Virus record (IMG/VR): IMGVR_UViG_3300008262_000238
Coordinates: 1-56,728 of that record
DNA length: 56,728 nt
Direction: 5' to 3' (one strand)
Source of the DNA: a virus
Taxonomy: Duplodnaviria; Caudoviricetes
Shown: in pieces, positions 1,708-54,875 of the stretch
How positions within the stretch are numbered: position 1 is the first letter of the stretch
How the letters are laid out: each line of letters starts with the position of its first letter
Translations under genes and position numbers: made by a program
The notes under the pieces: model-generated
Told to the model about the DNA's origin: nothing
Databases searched by the model: none
Seen by the model: the letters and a program-made list of their open reading frames with translations, nothing else

Positions 1708-1712
1708 TTATG

Positions 1713-1798
1713 TAGTCAGGACAGGATTCGAACCTGTACTAATCCTGGCATTCACCATATTAAATTAGGAACGTGTTACCAATTACACCACCTGACTA
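1713..1798 (-). ncRNA. tRNA-like element 1 (TAGTCAGG family)
   Basis: AGTCAGG/CCTGACT acceptor, D-arm, ACAGG-TTCGAAT-CCTGT T-arm; oversized loop in place of an anticodon loop. Confidence 0.8.
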
Positions 1799-4440: not shown

Positions 4441-4539
4441 TAGTCAGGACAGGATTCGAACCTGTATTTAGGGTTATTTAATCGGGTTTCATACCGTACC
4501 TACATCGCGAGTGCGTCTACCAATTCCGCCACCTGACTA
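4441..4539 (-). ncRNA. tRNA-like element 8
   Basis: Conserved ends TAGTCAGGTGGCGGAATTGGTAGACGC / TACAGGTTCGAATCCTGTCCTGACTA. Confidence 0.8.
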
Positions 4540-6906: not shown

Positions 6907-6913
6907 ATGTTTG

Positions 6914-7006
6914 TAGATAAGAAAGGATTCGAACCCATAACGCCGTTTTTAACTCGGCATCTCCCCCAAATTGAGGATAGCGTCTACCAATTCCGCCACT
7001 CACCTA
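6914..7006 (-). ncRNA. tRNA-like element 10 (Leu-like D arm, no canonical anticodon arm)
   Basis: AGGTGAG/CTTATCT acceptor, TGGCGGAATTGGTAGACGC, long variable hairpin, GGTTCGAATCC. Confidence 0.65.
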
Positions 7007-7684: not shown

Positions 7685-7701
7685 CCAATATGTCAAAGAA
7701 C
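7685..7701 (-). promoter_or_regulatory. boxA-like antitermination element
   Basis: GTTCTTTGACATATTGG, identical 17-mer at 12180-12196. Confidence 0.65.
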
Positions 7702-7756: not shown

Positions 7757-7793
7757 GAAAACAAAAAACCCACCTCTTTTTGGAGATGGGTTT
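7757..7793 (-). terminator. Attenuator terminator of leader 2
   Basis: AAACCCATCTC-CAAAAA-GAGGTGGGTTT + TTTGTTTT. Confidence 0.85.
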
Positions 7794-7815
7794 AAAATTT
7801 TTTATGTATATAATA

Positions 7816-7884
7816 TTACACCCTCTCCTTGAAAGTTGTCTCAGCTAAATCGCCCCCTATCAATGATATGTGTAAATTTTTCAT
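7816..7884 (-). CDS. Leader peptide 2 MKNLHISLIGGDLAETTFKERV (attenuator)
   Basis: 22-aa ORF after ATATTTATA motif; 3' codons GGAGA-GGGT complementary to the terminator 5' arm ACCC-A-TCTCC. Confidence 0.8.
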   Translation of the reverse strand: MKNLHISLIGGDLAETTFKERV

Positions 7885-7943
7885 TTGCGTTTTTATTATT
7901 TTGTTATAAATATATAATACTTTTCAAAAGTGTCAAGTTTTTT

Positions 7944-8264
7944 TTAAAAATCTTCATCATAATCACCAAGAACCTCATAAAGGTAATCCTCATAATTCAA
8001 TGAAATATAGTCCGCTAATAACGTGAACAAGTCATCTTGAAAGTCACCCATAATATCTTTAGCCAAAGCCATGGCCTTTTTTCCCATAGTTGCATCATCA
8101 TAATCACCAAGATCGTAAAGAGATTCCCTAACCTCCTTAAACACATCATCCAATGTAATGGATATTCTCATACCTTCCATTTTATCTTCTTCGTTATCTT
8201 CTTTAATAACTCGTTTAACAATCCTTGTTAAATCCGATTCTGTTAATTTAGTTACTCTTTTCAT
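7944..8264 (-). CDS. Acidic protein with LTESDL leader
   Basis: MKRVTKLTESDLTRIVKRVIKE N-terminus. Confidence 0.8.
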   Translation of the reverse strand: MKRVTKLTESDLTRIVKRVIKEDNEEDKMEGMRISITLDDVFKEVRESLYDLGDYDDATMGKKAMALAKDIMGDFQDDLFTLLADYISLNYEDYLYEVLGDYDEDF

Positions 8265-8318
8265 AATTTATATTTATTTTATAAATATTTTATGTTTTTT
8301 AAATGTGTCAAGTTTTTT

Positions 8319-8699
8319 TTAAAATTCTCCTTCACCCTCAATTTTACCCCAAACGTTTTTATATTCCGGGTTTTGTAAGAATAAATCGGCTTCAGTTGAT
8401 TCATTCTCCAAATCACTGATATAATCTTTTAACAAATCAATTACTTGTCTGATTCTTTCCTGTCTTTGTCTTGGACTAACTTTTCTTGATAGTTGGTGTT
8501 CTCTTGATAAATACCCGTATTCACCAGGATCACTAAAAACATTACCTTCATCTTTTCTAAAGAAGATGTCATTTAGTTTATCCCTTAAATTTAGATCTTT
8601 AGACTCTTTTTTATTGGATCTAAATCCCTCACCTTCTCTAATCACTTTTTTAACAATCCTTGTTAAATCCGATTCGGTTAATTTTATGACTTTTTTCAT
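8319..8699 (-). CDS. Protein with LTESDL leader
   Basis: True start MKKVIKLTESDL at 8699; the track extension overlaps tRNA-Leu. Confidence 0.8.
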   Translation of the reverse strand: MKKVIKLTESDLTRIVKKVIREGEGFRSNKKESKDLNLRDKLNDIFFRKDEGNVFSDPGEYGYLSREHQLSRKVSPRQRQERIRQVIDLLKDYISDLENESTEADLFLQNPEYKNVWGKIEGEGEF

Positions 8700-8732
8700 A
8701 ATAATAAATATATCATTATTTGAAAATGTTTG

Positions 8733-8813
8733 TACCCCCGGAGAGATTCGAACTCTCACACCTCTCGGCATCAGATCCTAAATCTGACGTGTCTACCATT
8801 CCACCACGAGGGT
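8733..8813 (-). tRNA. tRNA-Leu (TAG)
   Basis: TCAGA-TTTAGGA-TCTGA; class II. Confidence 0.92.
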
Positions 8814-8822
8814 ATTTTGTTG

Positions 8823-8894
8823 AGCTCAGGGTGGGATTTGAACCCACATACCAAGGTTTTGCAGACCTGGACTTTACCCATCAGACACCTGAGC
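8823..8894 (-). tRNA. tRNA-Cys (GCA)
   Basis: AGGT-CTGCAAA-ACCT; U73. Confidence 0.85.
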
Positions 8895-8896
8895 AA

Positions 8897-9352
8897 TTAG
8901 CGGCAGTGGTGATCTGCCTCCCTTGTTGCGATTTGGTTGTTGGGCTTAATATTTGTTTTAAAACCTAACGAGTTTGCCCATCCGACCGTAGGTGAAACCA
9001 GTCGTGAACTGAAGTGTTTTTCTTCAGCATTGTAATCCAAATCAATCTCCACCTTTACATTAACTTTTTTTGTTAACCATTCCGCAACTTGTATTGAATA
9101 ATCAGCCTCATTCCATAATCTTGTCCATTTATCTTTGATCTTTTTTATCTTTTCCTTATGGTAGATGTAATGAACACCACGATTACCATATCTATAAGCA
9201 ATTGCCGTTACATATACGGTACTTCTTCTATGATTTTGAGAGTCAGTACCAATATGGATCTCAACGTATGGACATTCCCTTAATATTTCAAGCGTGTGAG
9301 ATACAACATCGGTAACCACCTCACCAGAAACCTTTCTAAATATTTTTTTCAT
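8897..9352 (-). CDS. RNase H-like YkuK (DUF458) family protein
   Basis: IHIGTDSQ, VEIDLDYN and ADH motifs. Confidence 0.75.
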   Translation of the reverse strand: MKKIFRKVSGEVVTDVVSHTLEILRECPYVEIHIGTDSQNHRRSTVYVTAIAYRYGNRGVHYIYHKEKIKKIKDKWTRLWNEADYSIQVAEWLTKKVNVKVEIDLDYNAEEKHFSSRLVSPTVGWANSLGFKTNIKPNNQIATREADHHCR

Positions 9353-9366
9353 CTCACTACTTTTTG

Positions 9367-9442
9367 CGGAACCATAGGGAGTCGAACCCTAACTTTTGGA
9401 TTTTCAGTCCAACGTGACACACCATACTTACACCATAGTTCC
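9367..9442 (-). tRNA. tRNA-Phe (GAA)
   Basis: TTGGA-CTGAAAA-TCCAA. Confidence 0.85.
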
Positions 9443-9444
9443 TT

Positions 9445-9942
9445 TTATTTAATTTCAAATGCACAACGCATTGGCCTTTTCAATTTTTGGGAATCCTCAA
9501 AGTTCCCAATAACAACACCGTCTTTGATCGTAAAGGCATGACATTTAACCAACACAATGAAAGTCCCCTTTGGATATTTCTTTACAAATGTACCAACGGT
9601 CATTTTTCTATTAACTATTTCATTTTTAACTTTAACAGGATAATCCAAAGAATTAATCATATAGTCATTTTTTCTTTCACCAACAGGATGAACTTTTTTA
9701 CCATTTACCCTAATTCCATTATCCGACATTTTAACAAGTTTCATTGGAGTACCAAATGTTCCCCTTCTTGGTTTTCTCCCAAATTCTTCGGCAACATACT
9801 TATGAGCATAATCATATGAAATTTCAAATGAAGATGCAAATGCTCTTACAACACAATCACTTGTTTCCCATTTAGCAATCTCAGAGTCATTATAACCTTT
9901 GATTGCAGTTCCTGTTGATTCGTACGGTAGTTTGTTTTTCAT
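9445..9942 (-). CDS. Phage protein with DCVVRA...H motif (possible papain-like Cys-His fold)
   Basis: SDCVVRAFA and KCHAFTIKDG; promoter at 9947-9954 supports start at 9942. Confidence 0.6.
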   Translation of the reverse strand: MKNKLPYESTGTAIKGYNDSEIAKWETSDCVVRAFASSFEISYDYAHKYVAEEFGRKPRRGTFGTPMKLVKMSDNGIRVNGKKVHPVGERKNDYMINSLDYPVKVKNEIVNRKMTVGTFVKKYPKGTFIVLVKCHAFTIKDGVVIGNFEDSQKLKRPMRCAFEIK

Positions 9943-9989
9943 ATCACAAAGATACAAAAACTTTTTTGATCGGCAAAATTAATTTTTAG

Positions 9990-10060
9990 CACGCGCCGTT
10001 AGAATCGAACTAACCCACCGAGGTTTTGGAGACCTGGCCGACACCTTGTCTGTGACGCGC
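9990..10060 (-). tRNA. tRNA-Trp (CCA)
   Basis: AGGT-CTCCAAA-ACCT; G73. Confidence 0.85.
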
Positions 10061-10071
10061 TTATATTATTG

Positions 10072-10144
10072 TACCCCCACAGAGATTCAAACTCCGATCC
10101 CACCCTTAGAAGGGGTGTGTCCTATTCAGTTGGACGATGGGGGC
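10072..10144 (-). tRNA. tRNA-Arg (TCT)
   Basis: CACCC-CTTCTAA-GGGTG. Confidence 0.88.
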
Positions 10145-10149
10145 AATTG

Positions 10150-10222
10150 TACCCTCAAAGAGATTCAAACTCCTATCTCTGGATCCGTAGTCCAGGGTTT
10201 TATTCAGTTAAACTATGTGGGC
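10150..10222 (-). tRNA. tRNA-Arg (ACG)
   Basis: CTGGA-CTACGGA-TCCAG. Confidence 0.88.
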
Positions 10223-10413
10223 AATTAAAGAATTTTGGTCAACCACTCGCATCCCACCAATCTCTTGTATCAAACTTTTTGTAGTCCAAACGATTCCTTT
10301 ATTGAACTTAATCATTTTGGTAATATCTCCTACGACTCATTCTCAACTCACTTGCCTAAGCCTTGTAACCAGGATATGAGCCCGGCTCGGACACCTGTCC
10401 TATCGGTATGTTG

Positions 10414-10502
10414 AGGAAAGCAGTGGTAACGATCCACAATCGGTTTCTCACCGATCACATTGTTTAGCAAACAAGTCCCGTCGCCTTCAGGGATTACTTT
10501 CC
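10414..10502 (-). tRNA. tRNA-Ser (GCT)
   Basis: TTGT-TTGCTAA-ACAA; long variable arm; T-loop ATCGTTA. Confidence 0.8.
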
Positions 10503-10507
10503 ATTTG

Positions 10508-10580
10508 TGCTCATCACCGGTTACGATCCGATTCTCTCCACGATATCAGCGTGGTGCTTTCCCGATTAAGCTAGATGAGC
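10508..10580 (-). tRNA. tRNA-Ile (GAT)
   Basis: CCACG-CTGATAT-CGTGG; T-loop ATCGTAA. Confidence 0.85.
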
Positions 10581-10583
10581 CTG

Positions 10584-11117
10584 TTATAATAGTTTTTCGT
10601 GTATCTCAGCATGACAATTTGAGCACACTAATAAACATTTATCCACTTCTTCTTTTAATCTGTCAAATGACAAACTCTTTCCTGAAATTGTGAAGTCTTT
10701 TTCATTTGGATTTTTATGGTGGAATTGTAGTGCGGTCAGACATTTATTATAACCACATATTTCACACTTCCCTCCCTTGTATTCAATCAATTTCTTTTTA
10801 GTTCTCTTTCTCCATGATATAACAGATTGAGACCCACTAATCTTTTTAACCCTAACAACACTTTTAACGTGTTTTTTAACAGTTTCAAAAGACCTACCCG
10901 TAATCCTTACAACTTTTTTTAAGGAACCCACTTCATCGTATAATTTTTGAAGTTGTTCTTTTTCTTCTTCTGTTACTTTTTGATTGTTGTTGCCTAATTT
11001 ATGTATCTGACAATGATACGACACTGTTGACATTGCGCAACCTAAAATTTTTGTAATTTCTTTGTAGGTTTTTCCTTCTTTCCTCAAAGATATAATTTTT
11101 TCCGAATACCTTTCCAT
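10584..11117 (-). CDS. HNH homing endonuclease with N-terminal HTH
   Basis: CEICGY...LQFHH...CSNCHAEIH. Confidence 0.85.
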   Translation of the reverse strand: MERYSEKIISLRKEGKTYKEITKILGCAMSTVSYHCQIHKLGNNNQKVTEEEKEQLQKLYDEVGSLKKVVRITGRSFETVKKHVKSVVRVKKISGSQSVISWRKRTKKKLIEYKGGKCEICGYNKCLTALQFHHKNPNEKDFTISGKSLSFDRLKEEVDKCLLVCSNCHAEIHEKLL

Positions 11118-11167
11118 AACATTAACATTTTATATTAATAAATATCTGATAGTTCGGAAAAAATAAG

Positions 11168-11255
11168 CTGATGGGGTGGGATTCGAACCCACGGTGGAGA
11201 AAATTCTCGTCGGATTAACAGTCCGATGCGTTCGGCCAACTACGCGAACCCATCA
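11168..11255 (-). tRNA. tRNA-Asn (GTT) with long variable arm
   Basis: TCGGA-CTGTTAA-TCCGA; GAGAA-TT-TTCTC variable hairpin; G73. Confidence 0.85.
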
Positions 11256-11264
11256 ATTTTTTTG

Positions 11265-11347
11265 TGGGAGAGGAGGGACTTGAACCCCCACGTCCTCACG
11301 GAAACGGTTTTACAGACCGCCGAGCCAACCAATTGCTCAACACTCCC
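11265..11347 (-). tRNA. tRNA-Tyr (GTA)
   Basis: GCGGT-CTGTAAA-ACCGT; class II. Confidence 0.9.
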
Positions 11348-11490
11348 AAATTTAGGAAATCAGAAGATGGTTGCGTGGACATCTGATTTTACGATTGGCG
11401 TTACTTTGGTGTATATCTCCCAACTCCGATGATACTGACCGATATACACTCTCGTGTCATTAGTATCACCCTTCCCCAATCAACCTATAG

Positions 11491-11561
11491 TACCCCAAGA
11501 TGGATTTGAACCACCACCGATAGTATGTAACACTATCACGCTCCCATTACGCCATTGAGGT
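11491..11561 (-). tRNA. tRNA-Val (TAC)
   Basis: ATAGT-GTTACAT-ACTAT. Confidence 0.85.
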
Positions 11562-11630
11562 GTTTTAGTTTTTCAGAACAAAAGTAACCATTTTTTGGTA
11601 ACTATCACCCCTTTTTACTAAATTTTTTTG

Positions 11631-11705
11631 TGACCCCGGTGAGACTTGAACTCACGACCCCTCCGTTAAAAGCGGAGTGCTCTAAACCAACTGAGCTACG
11701 AGATC
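11631..11705 (-). tRNA. tRNA-Lys (TTT)
   Basis: CTCCG-CTTTTAA-CGGAG. Confidence 0.92.
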
Positions 11706-11723
11706 TTCTGTTTGTCATACTTG

Positions 11724-11912
11724 TCACTTTCCATAAGACATTAGTTTTTGATTGTTTATTTTTATTTCTGTTTCTACCCTTTTTAGTTCTTCACTTAAAT
11801 CCCCACGGTAGGATGGGTCTTTACTAATTTTGGATAAACTTAAGTAATAATTGTTTAAACCCTCAAGTCTTCCTTTAATTGCAATTTTTTCACATTCTTC
11901 GTTTGTTACCAT
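11724..11912 (-). CDS. Small coiled-coil hypothetical protein (62 aa)
   Basis: Start MVTNEE at 11912; the track extension overlaps tRNA-Pro. Confidence 0.55.
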   Translation of the reverse strand: MVTNEECEKIAIKGRLEGLNNYYLSLSKISKDPSYRGDLSEELKRVETEIKINNQKLMSYGK

Positions 11913-11927
11913 TTTTTTAAATTTTAG

Positions 11928-12000
11928 TAGGGTAGACAGGGGTCGAACCTGCATCGTCCACGTCCCAAACGTGGTGACTTACCAATTAGTCAACTACCCT
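11928..12000 (-). tRNA. tRNA-Pro (TGG)
   Basis: CCACG-TTTGGGA-CGTGG. Confidence 0.88.
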
Positions 12001-12006
12001 ATGTTG

Positions 12007-12090
12007 AGGAAGCCTGAGGTGTCGATCCCCATACCTTTCAGTACCGCCCGTTTTCAAGACGGGGTTGCAAGCCGTTGCAATTAGACTTCC
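12007..12090 (-). tRNA. tRNA-Ser (TGA)
   Basis: CCCGT-CTTGAAA-ACGGG; long variable arm; T-loop ATCGACA. Confidence 0.82.
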
Positions 12091-12099
12091 TTTTTGTTG

Positions 12100-12171
12100 A
12101 TCTCCCCCGAGGGTTCGAACCTCAATTCCATGGACCAAAACCATGTGTCCTGCCAGTTAGACGAGGGGAGA
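12100..12171 (-). tRNA. tRNA-Gln (TTG)
   Basis: CATGG-TTTTGGT-CCATG. Confidence 0.9.
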
Positions 12172-12179
12172 ATTTAAGG

Positions 12180-12196
12180 CCAATATGTCAAAGAAC
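12180..12196 (-). promoter_or_regulatory. boxA-like antitermination element
   Basis: GTTCTTTGACATATTGG between tRNA-Thr and tRNA-Gln. Confidence 0.65.
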
Positions 12197-12210
12197 ATTT
12201 TCTTTTTTTG

Positions 12211-12282
12211 AGGTCTCTGTCGGAACTGACCCGACAACTCAACTTTACAAGAGTCGTATTTTTCCTGTTAAACTAAGAGACC
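12211..12282 (-). tRNA. tRNA-Thr (TGT)
   Basis: CGACT-CTTGTAA-AGTTG; T-loop GTCAGTT. Confidence 0.82.
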
Positions 12283-12287
12283 AATGT

Positions 12288-12320
12288 AAAACAAAAAACC
12301 CGAGATTTTGTGTCTCGGGT
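12288..12320 (-). terminator. Attenuator terminator of leader 1
   Basis: ACCCGAGA-CACAAAA-TCTCGGGT + TTTTTGTTTT directly before tRNA-Thr. Confidence 0.85.
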
Positions 12321-12351
12321 CTTTCATTTTTATTTTATATTTGATGATACG

Positions 12352-12462
12352 TTATACCATACTATTAAATGAAAGACACCGAAGACGCTGAAGCGTAATA
12401 TACGACTTGACCCAATTCTGACACGGGTTACTAAAGTTCATATGTTTCATTGTTGTTTTCAT
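12352..12462 (-). CDS. Leader peptide 1 MKTTMKHMNFSNPCQNWVKSYITLQRLRCLSFNSMV (attenuator)
   Basis: 36-aa ORF after ATATTTATA; contains TCGG-T-GTCTTTCATTT, complementary to AAATGAAAGAC-CCGA overlapping the terminator 5' arm. Confidence 0.85.
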   Translation of the reverse strand: MKTTMKHMNFSNPCQNWVKSYITLQRLRCLSFNSMV

Positions 12463-12544
12463 CTTGGTTATAAATATATGTATTTTACAAAAAGTTTTAA
12501 ATTCTTTTACAAATTTAGTAATATTTTTTTATTTGACAAGCATT

Positions 12545-12739: not shown

Positions 12740-13261
12740 ATGAAAAAAGAAGAATTAGAAAACTTGATAAATGATGGTAAGTCATTGAACCAAATTAGTA
12801 AGGAAATAGGTAAGTCTTTAACATCTGTTAGGTATTGGGCAAAAAAACACAAAATACCTTTTGAAACTAAAAATTTCTCAAATCAAGGGATAAAGGATTA
12901 TGGGGAATCAAGATTATGCCCAAGATGTAAAAAATCATGTTCTATTGATCAATTTTATGATAGGAGAGGTAAAAAAAATAGTTCAGTATATTGTAAAAAA
13001 TGTACCACTGAACAGGTTGTGGAACGAACTCAGAAATTGAAACAAGAAATGGTAAACTATAAAGGGGGTTGTTGTGAATTATGTGGGTATGACAAATATA
13101 TAGGTGCGTTAGATTTTCATCATATAAACCCAAATGAAAAAGATTTTACAATTGCAAAAGTTAGACAATATAAATTTGATGAAGTAATAAAGGAAGAATT
13201 GGATAAATGTATGTTAGTATGTTCTAATTGTCACCGTGAGATACACGGTGGATTAAAGTAG
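12740..13261 (+). CDS. HNH homing endonuclease with N-terminal HTH and Zn finger
   Basis: CELCGY...LDFHH...CSNCHREIH; paralog of 10584-11117. Confidence 0.85.
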   Translation: MKKEELENLINDGKSLNQISKEIGKSLTSVRYWAKKHKIPFETKNFSNQGIKDYGESRLCPRCKKSCSIDQFYDRRGKKNSSVYCKKCTTEQVVERTQKLKQEMVNYKGGCCELCGYDKYIGALDFHHINPNEKDFTIAKVRQYKFDEVIKEELDKCMLVCSNCHREIHGGLK

Positions 13262-13335: not shown

Positions 13336-13341
13336 ATTTTA

Positions 13342-13527
13342 TCAGATCTTCTTTACCTCATAAGTATGACCTGAATCTGAATTAGTTTGAAAGATGTCTT
13401 TCATTTTTTCAGCATCTTCTTCTGTTTCAAATTCCCAAACTTCATTATCACTATTTAGAAGGATAACAGGTAGTCTTTTTGTGGGGATTGAACTTGATAC
13501 TTTTACGTGTTTAACTATTACATACAT
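13342..13527 (-). CDS. Hypothetical protein (61 aa)
   Basis: ORF track, plausible composition. Confidence 0.65.
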   Translation of the reverse strand: MYVIVKHVKVSSSIPTKRLPVILLNSDNEVWEFETEEDAEKMKDIFQTNSDSGHTYEVKKI

Positions 13528-13674
13528 ATGACAATTATAATAACTTATTTTTGATCTGTCAATAGGTATAAAACAAAATGGGGATTACTCCCCACTTTGC
13601 TAGATAATAAACACCTCCCTTTCTTTTGATGGTTTATCCTCACCCAACAACTACGTCAGATAAGTTTCATCGGG

Positions 13675-16772: not shown

Positions 16773-16824
16773 TTTTTTTATTTATAAATATTTATTTTTT
16801 TTAAAAAAAATTAACCACTTGAGT

Positions 16825-20838: not shown

Positions 20839-20865
20839 AGTTTTCTTTTTTTATAAATATTAATG

Positions 20866-40476: not shown

Positions 40477-40519
40477 AATTATAATTATTTAGTTATAAAT
40501 ATCTCAATTTTTAATAATT

Positions 40520-54634: not shown

Positions 54635-54875
54635 ATATTATAAATATAACAAAACCCACAATCTATTGGATCATGGGTTTGTAAAACTTGATTTTTTTTA
54701 ATTATTCAAAATAGAATTTGTCAACAGGAATTCGTTTCTCCATATAGTTTTTGTTTGTGTATAGTCTTGAAAATGTTATTTTTTTGTAGTATTATAAAAA
54801 CCAAAAAAAGGTTCATCAAATCCAAGTGCTTTCATTCTTAAAGCAAGTGGATATGGTACAAATTCATATTCCATA

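What the first reader, a model, noticed from the sequence alone, without database searches (positions are those of the whole stretch)
12288..12480. Codon-sampling leader-peptide attenuator in front of a phage tRNA operon (leader 1)
Seen on the minus strand: ATATTTATA motif, then a 36-codon ORF, then an intrinsic terminator, then tRNA-Thr and 15 more tRNAs down to 8733. Codons R-C-L-S-F near the ORF end (TCGG-T-GTCTTTCATTT, 12367-12382) can pair with AAATGAAAGAC-CCGA (12315-12329), which includes the terminator's 5' arm: a mutually exclusive antiterminator. Just upstream, a 17-codon stretch F-S-N-P-C-Q-N-W-V-K-S-Y-I-T-L-Q-R contains 14 different amino acids. These are exactly the 14 served by the downstream tRNAs (Thr, Gln, Ser, Pro, Lys, Val, Tyr, Asn, Ile, Arg, Trp, Phe, Cys, Leu). 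Isoacceptor boxes match too: AGT and TCG for the two Ser tRNAs, ATT for Ile-GAU, CTT for Leu-UAG, CGT for Arg-ACG. Ala, Asp, Glu and Gly are absent from both the leader and this block. Established: trp/his/thr attenuators use runs of one or two amino acids. Inference: this leader carries about one codon per tRNA, so loss of any of these tRNAs (starvation or host anticodon nucleases such as PrrC, RloC or PARIS) would stall the ribosome, free the antiterminator and switch on the phage tRNAs.
Basis: partly seen in the sequence, partly recalled or inferred. Interest (0 to 1): 0.96.

Follow-up and report, generated by a model that had tools for sequence, protein, structure and literature searches.

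The report
Leader-peptide attenuator gating phage tRNA genes
A tiny conserved reading frame and a switchable transcription stop sit directly in front of a giant lake phage's tRNA genes, and the tiny frame contains one or more codons for every amino acid those tRNAs carry, so the phage probably makes these tRNAs when ribosomes decode slowly, a control not yet described in print for tRNA genes.

Summary
On the minus strand there is a Bacteroidota-type promoter, a 36-codon ORF (12462..12352), a hairpin with a T-tract (12321..12288), then tRNA-Thr and 15 more tRNAs.

I found 35 distinct versions of the ORF in related jumbo-phage contigs.
- All have 34-37 codons.
- All 5 indels inside the ORF are 3 nt long.
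- pN/pS is about 1, so the frame is kept but the peptide sequence is not.
- The terminator covaries.
- The ORF's 3' part complements the terminator's 5' arm in 23 of 35 versions, with arm and complement changing together. A 12-member clade lacks this.

Of the 35 leaders, 33 hold all 16 amino acids of the family's full block. They use CUN, not UUR, for Leu, matching tRNA-Leu(UAG).

A second leader before the next block shows the same wiring with UUR/AUA codons. A relative with one merged array has one leader holding all 20 amino acids.

Leaders do not follow recent tRNA losses, and nothing is shown experimentally.

My reading is a ribosome-dependent attenuator. A codon set matched to the tRNA set is probable but not proven.

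My literature searches found no such control of tRNA genes. This scan has noted the same kind of element on other phage DNA.

The parts
12510..12539 (-). Promoter-like site TTG-N19-TAAATTTG (Bacteroidota -33/-7 type)
   Evidence: Read. The pattern TTG-N17-21-TAnnTT[TC]G lies 45-53 nt before the ATG in 33 of 34 leaders that have at least 100 nt of upstream sequence. Assigning this consensus to Bacteroidota rests on recall and on search listings.
12468..12477 (-). ATATTTATAA motif 5 nt before the ATG (possible second -7 box)
   Evidence: The motif has 10 exact copies in the window against 2.1 expected. Nine are on the minus strand. By my comparison with the ORF starts, seven lie 3-20 nt before an ATG. 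It belongs to repeat family D9, also seen at 8267-8334 and 7892-7959.
12352..12462 (-). Leader ORF, 36 codons plus stop
   Evidence: There are 35 distinct homologues of 34-37 codons. All 5 indels inside it are 3 nt long. Median pN/pS is 0.97.
12367..12386 (-). Antiterminator 5' strand (GUCU-U-CGG-U-GUCUUUCAUUU; codons 26-32)
   Evidence: Folds. Duplex with the terminator arm is -13.7 kcal/mol against -9.0 +/- 2.5 in 500 shuffles.
12344..12360 (-). Small hairpin AUGGUAU-AAC-GUAUCAU enclosing the leader stop codon
   Evidence: Present in the MFE folds. Other clades have a hairpin of different sequence at the same place, such as AGUUAAA-AACG-UUUAACU. It was not recovered by RNAalifold because the alignment is out of register there.
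12310..12329 (-). Antiterminator 3' strand: AAAUGAAAGAC plus the terminator 5' arm and first loop bases
   Evidence: The 11-nt perfect complement was reached in 0 of 300 shuffles.
12288..12321 (-). Intrinsic terminator: stem GACCCGAGA/UCUCGGGUU, loop CACAAAA, T-tract
   Evidence: It is the RNAalifold consensus over 34 sequences. Four of its 11 pairs show compensatory changes, and the T-tract is invariant.
8732..12282 (-). tRNA block 1: Thr, Gln, Ser(UGA), Pro, Lys, Val, Tyr, Asn, Ile(GAU), Ser(GCU), Arg(ACG), Arg(UCU), Trp, Phe, Cys, Leu(UAG), with three ORFs among them
   Evidence: The same order is found in relatives.

Best explanation
**What it is.** The region is a ribosome-dependent transcription attenuator that gates the first tRNA block of a jumbo phage with a probable Bacteroidota host.

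**How it works (all inferred).** Transcription starts at a conserved promoter about 50 nt upstream of the leader ORF. The 36-codon leader is translated while RNA polymerase moves on.
- If the ribosome moves quickly into the last third of the ORF, it covers the segment (codons 26-32) that is complementary to the 5' arm of the terminator. The terminator hairpin then forms, and transcription stops 5 nt before tRNA-Thr.
- If the ribosome is held up anywhere in the first roughly 24 codons, that segment pairs with the terminator's 5' arm as an antiterminator. Polymerase then reads into the tRNA genes.

**What the leader senses (inferred).** The leader holds at least one codon for each of the 16 amino acids served by the family's full block, in the codon boxes those tRNAs read (CUN, AUY, both Ser boxes). 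A shortage of any of these charged tRNAs would therefore turn the block on.

**Shown versus inferred.** The sequence anatomy, its conservation and the composition statistics are shown. Translation, stalling, read-through and the physiological trigger are inferred.
For: **The ORF is kept as a reading frame, not as a protein.**
- There are 35 distinct versions of 34-37 codons with the start codon kept.
- All 5 gap runs inside the ORF are 3 nt long. After the stop, only 3 of 14 gap runs are multiples of 3.
- Median pN/pS is 0.97, and the three codon positions change equally often (1242/1230/1216).

**The terminator is real.** It is the only RNAalifold consensus structure. Four of its 11 pairs show compensatory changes and the T-tract is invariant. 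In this window only 5 nt separate the T-tract from tRNA-Thr.

**Alternative pairing.**
- In the window, the terminator state is -40.5 kcal/mol and the antiterminator state -38.5 kcal/mol.
- The 11-nt complement was reached in 0 of 300 shuffles.
- The last 45 nt of the ORF pair with each sequence's own terminator arm better than shuffles in 23 of 35 sequences. z is -0.4 to -4.5 in the window's clade, about -3 in the L034 clade and -1.3 to -2.0 in the L049 clade.
- Arm and complement change together: GACCCGAGAC with GUCUUCGG, CGAACC with GGUUCG, CCCAGGGCG with CGUCCGGGG.

**A second unit 4.5 kb downstream has the same wiring.** In leader 2 (7883..7815), the ORF end complements the terminator arm in all 27 variants (z -1.0 to -4.8; p<0.05 in 19 of 27). 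ORF end, 5' arm and 3' arm co-change.

**Distant clades keep the design.** L081's leader ends in GGUUCGG, against the arm CCGAACC. L078's ORF end carries GACUCG, against the arm CGAGUC.

**Codon set.**
- 33 of 35 leaders hold all 16 block-1 amino acids. The two exceptions lack Arg and Val, and their blocks lack tRNA-Arg and tRNA-Val.
- Coverage exceeds column-shuffled controls: p=0.035 with 4 clade representatives and p=0.0034 with 6.
- Leu codons are CUN 15 to UUR 1 in leader 1 and CUN 1 to UUR 10 in leader 2 (Fisher 1.4e-5). Phage genes use UUR 70% of the time.
- Leader 2 always holds L, M, I, G, A, E, D and never P, Q, W.
- L078 has one merged array for 20 amino acids and one 47-codon leader holding all 20, with both Leu boxes and both Ile boxes. 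The chance of that is about 1%.
Against: - One clade, 12 of 35 leaders (L014/L028 type), shows no complementarity to the terminator arm beyond shuffles (z -0.5 to +0.9).
- On the family alignment, the window-derived helix shows no significant covariation.
- In leader 1 the antiterminator strand lies 16-35 nt before the stop codon. A ribosome waiting at the stop would leave most of it free, so the model needs kinetic coupling. Leader 2 has the canonical geometry.
- Leaders do not follow recent tRNA loss. L001, L012, L022, L028 and L068 have reduced blocks with unchanged leaders.
- Leaders carry amino acids that block 1 does not serve: Ala in 19, Gly in 6 and Asp in 3 of 35.
- The window's own block lacks tRNA-His and tRNA-Met, although the leader has those codons.
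- Classical attenuators use runs of codons, and single codons should give low sensitivity to partial starvation (established knowledge).
- Avoidance of stop codons is not significant by itself.
- There is no direct evidence of translation, termination or read-through.
Confidence: 0.5

Rival explanations
1. It is a ribosome-dependent attenuator, but a generic one. It reports whether translation keeps pace with transcription at all (ribosome supply, coupling, global stress). Its amino-acid variety was not selected to mirror the tRNA set.
For: All the architecture evidence applies. Leaders do not follow tRNA losses. Ala, Gly and Asp occur in many leaders. A 35-residue peptide has about 15 different amino acids anyway: the mean is 14.6-15.7.
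Against: Full coverage of the 16 occurs in only about 1% of random small ORFs, yet it is kept in 33 of 35 leaders and beats column shuffles. The two leaders use opposite Leu codon boxes that match their own blocks. The merged array goes with a 20-amino-acid leader.
Confidence: 0.22
2. The ORF is an ordinary small phage gene with its own promoter and terminator. The tRNAs behind it are made by leaky read-through, and the match to the tRNA set is coincidence.
For: The promoter, ORF and terminator form a complete unit. In this window, leader 2's terminator is followed by another promoter-like site before the tRNA. The N-terminal two-thirds of the peptide is well conserved.
Against: pN/pS is about 1 and codon positions change equally, unlike a protein under selection. 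The peptide has no family hit in PHROGs. Complementarity between the ORF end and the terminator arm, with co-changes in two separate leaders, has no role in this reading. In this window only 5 nt lie between the T-tract and tRNA-Thr, which leaves no room for a promoter.
Confidence: 0.15
3. The leader is a nascent-peptide (arrest-peptide) sensor. The conserved residues (His-Met, Pro, Trp, Tyr-x-Thr) stall the ribosome in response to a small molecule or antibiotic, as with TnaC or the Erm leaders, and so control the terminator.
For: A few positions are invariant across all clades (H7-M8, P, W, Y, T).
Against: The invariant codons are also invariant at synonymous sites, so the peptide need not be what is selected. 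Leader 2 shares none of these residues yet has the same wiring. No ligand logic fits a tRNA operon.
Confidence: 0.05
4. The region is an untranslated structured 5' leader of the pre-tRNA transcript, such as a processing or stability element. The open frame is incidental.
For: Substitutions look non-coding. Stop avoidance is weak. Several local hairpins are present.
Against: All 5 indels inside the frame are 3 nt long, against 3 of 14 multiples of 3 after the stop. The ATG and the length are conserved in 35 of 35 versions. The only consensus structure is the terminator.
Confidence: 0.05

Closest known systems
Multivalent leader-peptide attenuators of enterobacterial amino-acid operons (ilvGMEDA: Ile/Val/Leu; thr: Thr/Ile), and the trp/his/leu/phe leaders
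   Same: A short translated leader ORF, an intrinsic terminator before the regulated genes, and an alternative pairing that takes over the terminator's 5' arm when the ribosome lags. The best sub-threshold Rfam match is Thr_leader (27.6 bits).
   Different: The regulated genes are tRNAs, not biosynthetic enzymes. There are no runs of regulatory codons: 16 different amino acids appear about once or twice each. The match is below every Rfam gathering score (55 for Thr_leader). The host is probably Bacteroidota. There is no sequence relationship to these leaders.
The cryptic trn tRNA operon of Anabaena sp. PCC 7120, induced under translational stress (PMC8421152; PMC10272220)
   Same: An accessory array of tRNA genes is kept off and switched on when translation is impaired.
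   Different: In Anabaena, control is at the promoter through direct repeats and the repressor TrcR. The passages I read in PMC8421152 say so. The words attenuat-, leader and terminator have 0 occurrences in both papers. That operon is cellular, not phage-borne.
T-box riboswitches
   Same: They sense the supply of charged tRNA and act through a terminator/antiterminator choice.
   Different: T-boxes bind uncharged tRNA directly, need no translation, and control synthetase and amino-acid genes mostly in Firmicutes. No T-box match appeared in the Rfam search.
Earlier notes of this scan on other phages (phiCbK-like Caulobacter phages, a crAss-like phage, lake phages)
   Same: They describe the same architecture: promoter, mini-ORF whose codons mirror the tRNA block, terminator/antiterminator.
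   Different: They concern different phage lineages and unrelated leader sequences. They are AI notes, unchecked here and unpublished.

Membership tests
Leader-peptide (ribosome-mediated) transcription attenuators | A short ORF in the 5' leader that is translated | tested here: inconclusive
   The ORF is conserved in 35 of 35 versions and its indels keep the frame (5 of 5). Translation itself cannot be shown with these tools.
Leader-peptide (ribosome-mediated) transcription attenuators | An intrinsic terminator between the leader ORF and the regulated genes | tested here: met
   A hairpin plus T-tract lies 5 nt before tRNA-Thr. It is the consensus structure, with 4 compensatory pairs of 11.
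Leader-peptide (ribosome-mediated) transcription attenuators | A mutually exclusive antiterminator that involves the ORF or nearby sequence and the terminator's 5' arm | tested here: met
   Met for this window: -38.5 against -40.5 kcal/mol, with 0 of 300 shuffles reaching the 11-nt complement. Met in 23 of 35 family members and absent in the 12-member L014/L028 clade.
Leader-peptide (ribosome-mediated) transcription attenuators | Regulatory codons cognate to the operon's product, classically in runs | tested here: not met
   There are no runs. Instead there is at least one codon for each of the 16 amino acids served by the full block, in 33 of 35 leaders. This is the variant feature.
Leader-peptide (ribosome-mediated) transcription attenuators | Read-through rises when the ribosome stalls | not testable with these tools
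   This needs a reporter, Term-seq or Ribo-seq. One contig from an RNA library spans ORF, terminator and tRNA-Thr, but DNA carry-over cannot be excluded.
Rfam Thr_leader / His_leader / Trp_leader / Phe_leader | Score at or above the family's gathering score | tested here: not met
   Scores against gathering scores are 27.6 vs 55, 22.8 vs 49, 21.5 vs 41 and 17.5 vs 55.
T-box riboswitch | Match to the Rfam T-box model | tested here: not met
   No T-box hit at gathering score or at E up to 5.

The most novel reading that the evidence does not exclude
Phage tRNA arrays are gated by a 'checksum' leader. This is a mini-ORF that samples every codon family its tRNA block serves, so that loss of any one of those tRNAs lifts termination and switches on the phage's replacement set. 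Such loss could come from starvation, phage-induced host shut-off, or host anticodon nucleases. The code is partitioned between two such sensors (CUN/AUY with 16 amino acids; UUR/AUA with Gly, Ala, Asp, Glu). Where the arrays merge, the sensors merge into one 20-amino-acid leader.
Probability: 0.4. Interest if true: 0.9.

Novelty: new variant of a known kind. Interest (0 to 1): 0.8.

Why it matters
- It is not well understood how phage tRNA genes are regulated, or why phages keep large arrays of them.
- An attenuator that reads tRNA supply directly through a leader sampling many codons would be a new input logic for a classic mechanism.
- It would be an attenuator that controls tRNA genes themselves. 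I found none in print in four full-text searches.
- It would be a leader-peptide attenuator in the Bacteroidota world, where such control is, to my knowledge, little described.
- It would tie phage tRNA arrays to moments when host tRNAs fail, including tRNA-cleaving defences. It would also give a compact, portable sensor of decoding capacity.
- The family here offers natural variants for testing: reduced blocks, a merged array, and a clade without an antiterminator.

Tried and rejected
**Searches that gave no relatives.**
- DNA searches of the phage collection found only HNH-gene matches or nothing.
- The 588-aa neighbouring protein gave no related loci.
- The exact terminator pattern gave nothing.
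- The gapped palindrome pattern returned 12 loci, of which 10 (L002-L011) are unrelated.

**Structure tests that were weak.**
- RNAalifold recovered neither the antiterminator nor the stop-codon hairpin as a consensus.
- For the window-derived helix laid on the family alignment, covariation was no better than shuffles for most measures. Cells paired were 70.6% and 82.4% against 30-63% when slid, but this helix was derived from one of the sequences.
- The probability that the 5' arm is paired in transcripts lacking the 3' arm exceeded shuffles clearly only in part of the window's clade.

**Other tests that were weak or negative.**
- The stop-codon avoidance test gave p=0.47 with 4 representatives.
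- Tracking of tRNA loss by the leader gave only 2 agreeing cases (L013 Arg, L022 Val) against many reduced blocks with unchanged leaders. I take this as not supported.
- The sub-threshold Rfam hits (Thr, His, Trp leaders and several sRNAs) probably reflect the terminator.
- PHROGs gave no family for the peptide.

**RNA libraries.**
- Only Logan contigs were available. They cannot show transcript ends, strand or level.
- One 286-nt contig of a relative in run X19 spans 12173-12441. Runs X17 and X18 are probably DNA.

**Errors and limits.**
- My pattern for the second promoter box was mis-specified, so its count is void.
- The more distant arrays L084-L087 start right after a promoter with no leader.
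- I did not ask for supplementary files of papers. They may hold transcript maps of Bacteroidota phages that bear on the novelty claim.
Full report
**What is in the window.**

On the minus strand the region reads in this order:
- a promoter-like site TTG-N19-TAAATTTG (12539..12510);
- the motif ATATTTATAA (12477..12468);
- a 36-codon ORF (12462..12352, MKTTMKHMNFSNPCQNWVKSYITLQRLRCLSFNSMV);
- a small hairpin that encloses its stop codon (12360..12344);
- an A-rich spacer;
- a hairpin GACCCGAGA/UCUCGGGUU with a T-tract (12321..12288);
- 5 nt later, tRNA-Thr (12282).

ARAGORN at default settings gives 14 tRNAs down to 8732. Rfam at gathering score gives 13. At a relaxed threshold tRNA-Ser(UGA) (12006-12090) and tRNA-Trp(CCA) (9989-10062) appear.

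Three ORFs lie among the tRNAs: an HNH endonuclease with an HTH domain, a protein of unknown function, and an RNaseH-like protein. A further HNH gene lies upstream on the other strand.

The contig is the whole 'genome' held and has about 29% G+C.

**The alternative fold in the window.**

GUCUUUCAUUU (12377..12367) and AAAUGAAAGAC (12329..12319) are perfect complements. None of 300 dinucleotide shuffles of the region gave an inverted repeat of 11 nt or more.

With CGG:CCG and GUCU:AGAC, the pairing runs over the whole 5' arm of the terminator.
- Forced terminator state: -40.5 kcal/mol.
- Forced antiterminator state: -38.5 kcal/mol.
- Terminator hairpin alone: -13.1 kcal/mol.
- Antiterminator module alone: -18.2 kcal/mol.

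The whole region folds better than shuffles (z = -3.3).

**Relatives.**

The phage collection held no close relative. Exact-pattern scans with a 27-mer of tRNA-Thr found 5 viral and 8 metagenome loci besides L001. A protein scan with the RNaseH-like ORF found 64 viral loci from contigs of up to 304 kb. The window is therefore a piece of a jumbo phage family from fresh water (run labels).

Upstream of tRNA-Thr(UGU) there are 41 distinct regions:
- 35 carry a complete homologous ORF of 34-37 codons;
- 3 are cut by the locus end and hold its 3' part (L016, L030, L074);
- 3 have tRNA-Thr inside an array behind another tRNA (L081, L084/L087, L085).

The promoter pattern TTG-N17-21-TAnnTT[TC]G lies 45-53 nt before the ATG in 33 of the 34 leaders that have enough upstream sequence. 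That this is the Bacteroidota consensus I know from recall and from search listings only.

**Is the ORF a reading frame?**

I aligned 34 of the 35 versions, leaving out L038, whose leader ORF is identical to L017's. In this alignment all 5 distinct gap runs inside the ORF are 3 columns long. Of 14 gap runs after the stop codon, 3 are multiples of three. One further 4-column run lies at the ORF end, where the window's clade has two more codons.

The substitution pattern is not that of a protein. Median pN/pS over 120 pairs is 0.97, and the three codon positions differ equally often (1242/1230/1216). Avoidance of stop codons is not significant by itself.

So the frame and length are kept while the peptide sequence is not, apart from a few codons that are invariant at all three positions. 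This is what one expects of a regulatory upstream ORF rather than a working peptide. PHROGs gives no family for it.

**The terminator.**

RNAalifold on the 34 sequences returns the terminator as the only consensus structure. It has 11 pairs, 4 of them with compensatory changes on both sides (for example A-U/G-C 19:13 and C-G/A-U/G-C 18:7:6), and an invariant T-tract.

**The antiterminator across the family.**

The window's helix, laid on the alignment, keeps 71-82% of cells paired against 30-63% when slid. Its covariation is not above the shuffles, and it was derived from one of the sequences.

A register-free test is clearer. For each sequence I took the best duplex between the last 45 nt of the ORF and that sequence's own terminator arm, and compared it with 500 dinucleotide shuffles.

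| Clade | Members | z |
|---|---|---|
| Window's clade | 11 | -0.4 to -4.5 |
| L034 clade | 6 | about -3 |
| L049 clade | 6 | -1.3 to -2.0 |
| L014/L028 clade | 12 | -0.5 to +0.9 |

In every sequence the first 45 nt of the ORF pair less well with the arm. Arm and complement change together:
- GACCCGAGAC with GUCUUCGG (window);
- CGAACC with GGUUCG (L017);
- CCCGGA with UCCG (L013);
- ACCCGAGACU/G with A/CGUCGAGGGU (L034/L047);
- CCCAGGGCG with CGUCCGGGG (L072).

The switch is thus supported in 23 of 35 versions and absent in one clade.

**A second unit with the same wiring.**

At 7959..7760 the window has a promoter of the same repeat family, a 22-codon ORF (MKNLHISLIGGDLAETTFKERV), a terminator, a further promoter-like site and then tRNA-Leu(UAA).

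The unit is conserved in relatives, and in several of them the terminator directly precedes the tRNA. In all 27 variants tested the last codons complement the terminator's 5' arm. z runs from -1.0 to -4.8, with p<0.05 in 19 of 27. ORF end, 5' arm and 3' arm change together: GGAGAUGG/CCAUCUCC, GAAGAUGG/CCAUCUUC, GAAGAGGG/CCCUCUUC. Here the strand lies right at the stop codon, which is the canonical geometry.

More distant clades keep the design with other sequences. L081 has a 30-codon leader ending in GGUUCGG against the arm CCGAACC. L078's ORF end carries GACUCG against CGAGUC.

Two separate leaders, plus distant homologues, all wired to their own terminators, are the strongest argument for attenuation.

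**The codon set.**

The family's full block 1 is Thr, Gln, Ser(UGA), Pro, Lys, Val, Tyr, Asn, Ile(GAU), Ser(GCU), Met, His, Arg(ACG), Arg(UCU), Trp, Phe, Cys, Leu(UAG). That is 16 amino acids. The window has lost tRNA-His and tRNA-Met.
- 33 of the 35 leaders hold all 16. The two exceptions lack Arg (L013, whose block has no tRNA-Arg) and Val (L022, whose block has no tRNA-Val, among other losses). Glu never occurs; Asp occurs in 3, Gly in 6 and Ala in 19.
- Random small ORFs of this composition hold all 16 in 1.2% of draws, and all 16 without A, D, E, G in 0.04%. For 36-residue windows of real proteins the figures are 9 of 4053 and 0.
- Coverage is kept although residues move. Cys sits at three or more different columns in different clades. 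L013 lost His7 and has His at another position.
- Shuffling each alignment column among sequences gives full coverage far less often than observed: p=0.035 with 4 clade representatives, p=0.0034 with 6, and less than 5e-5 with 16 related ones.
- At codon level, counted as distinct column-codon combinations, leader 1 uses CUN 15 times and UUR once. The phage's genes use UUR for 70% of Leu. Leader 1 uses AUA once in 10 Ile codons (genes 39%) and CGN in 9 of 13 Arg codons (genes 16%).
- Leader 2 uses UUR 10 times and CUN once (Fisher 1.4e-5 against leader 1). It always holds L, M, I, G, A, E, D, the core of block 2, and never P, Q, W.
- L078 has one merged array for 20 amino acids, counting its first tRNA, which ARAGORN finds only at the relaxed threshold and calls Ser(UGA), as the Thr orthologue. 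The array includes both Leu(UAA) and Leu(UAG) and both Ile(UAU) and Ile(GAU). It has a single 47-codon leader with all 20 amino acids and both Leu and Ile boxes. All 20 occur in 1.1% of 47-residue windows.
- L081's 30-codon leader holds all 12 amino acids of the block behind it, which happens by chance in 0.3-1.2% of cases.

**What speaks against the codon-set reading.**
- Leaders are unchanged where blocks have shrunk: L001 lacks tRNAs for Pro, Asn, Arg and Phe; L012 has 7 tRNAs; L022 has 8; L028 and L068 are also reduced.
- Ala is common in leader 1 without a block-1 tRNA.
- A 35-residue peptide has about 15 different amino acids anyway.
- The leaders of leader-1 type are homologous, so their coverage is not independent evidence.
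- Single codons should respond weakly to partial starvation (established knowledge on attenuators).
- In leader 1 the antiterminator strand would be largely free behind a ribosome waiting at the stop codon, so the timing of transcription and translation must do the work (inference).

**Expression.**

Only contigs of RNA libraries were available. One 286-nt contig of a relative from a metatranscriptome run spans 12173-12441, that is tRNA-Thr, the terminator and most of the ORF. DNA carry-over cannot be excluded, and contigs show no ends. This is a weak hint of read-through at most.

**Comparison with what is known.**

The element works like the leader-peptide attenuators of amino-acid operons. 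The closest are the multivalent ilvGMEDA and thr leaders. It is not a member of their Rfam families: the best match is Thr_leader at 27.6 bits against a gathering score of 55. It also lacks codon runs and controls tRNA genes.

Four full-text searches found no paper on leader-peptide attenuation of tRNA genes; I saw the listings and abstract starts only. The nearest in print is the Anabaena trn operon, induced by translational stress through promoter repeats and the repressor TrcR. I read passages of PMC8421152. The words attenuat-, leader and terminator have 0 occurrences in it and in PMC10272220.

This scan has noted the same kind of element in other phage lineages. Those notes are unchecked here and are not independent proof.

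**Verdict.**

- The attenuator reading is well supported by comparison. My estimate is about 0.7 for any ribosome-dependent attenuator.
- The claim that the leader's codon set is matched to the tRNA set is probable but not proven, at about 0.4-0.5 overall.

The element is a new variant of a known kind of control, and it is of high interest.

Noticed in passing
window 7757-7959 (-): A second leader unit. It has a promoter of the same repeat family, a 22-codon ORF MKNLHISLIGGDLAETTFKERV and a terminator whose 5' arm complements the last codons. A further promoter-like site TTG-N19-TTACATTTG then precedes tRNA-Leu(UAA). The unit is conserved in 27 variants with three-way covariation.
   Followed up: yes
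L078 6898-7095 and 7099-12280: A 66%-identity relative has one 47-codon leader holding all 20 amino acids, a strong terminator, and a single merged tRNA array. The array serves all 20 amino acids if its first tRNA, found only at the relaxed threshold, is the Thr orthologue.
   Followed up: partly
window 13340-13562 (-): A perfect TTGACA-17-TATAAT site lies 6 nt before a 62-codon acidic ORF (13525..13340). The ORF ends 5 nt before tRNA-Arg(UCU), with no terminator between them. A homologous ORF precedes tRNA-Arg(UCU) in L081.
   Followed up: partly
window 12180-12196 and 7685-7701 (-): The 17-mer GTTCTTTGACATATTGG occurs exactly twice, each time 6-8 nt before a tRNA (Gln; Leu-UAA). It is also seen in relatives before tRNAs. 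Its function is unknown.
   Followed up: no
window, 10 sites (e.g. 16782-16791, 20851-20860, 40493-40502, 54638-54647): ATATTTATAA occurs 10 times against 2.1 expected. Nine copies are on the minus strand, and seven that I checked lie 3-20 nt before an ATG. It may be a phage promoter box that gives very short 5' leaders.
   Followed up: partly
window 12740-13261 (+), 10584-11117 (-), 8897-9352 (-): Two HNH endonuclease genes and an RNaseH-like gene lie inside or beside the tRNA array. tRNA content differs greatly among close relatives (7 to 18 tRNAs in block 1), as if the array were eroded and rebuilt around such genes.
   Followed up: partly
window 1712-1797 and 6913-7005 (-): ARAGORN calls two tRNA-like genes with an undefined two-base anticodon. 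Rfam finds further long tRNA-like hits (1991-2113, 2768-2873, 4441-4538) that share a nearly identical acceptor/T-arm sequence.
   Followed up: no
L084 5700-6046, L085, L087: In the most distant group (59% identity of the RNaseH-like protein), the array starts right after a promoter-like TATATTTA box with no leader or terminator.
   Followed up: no
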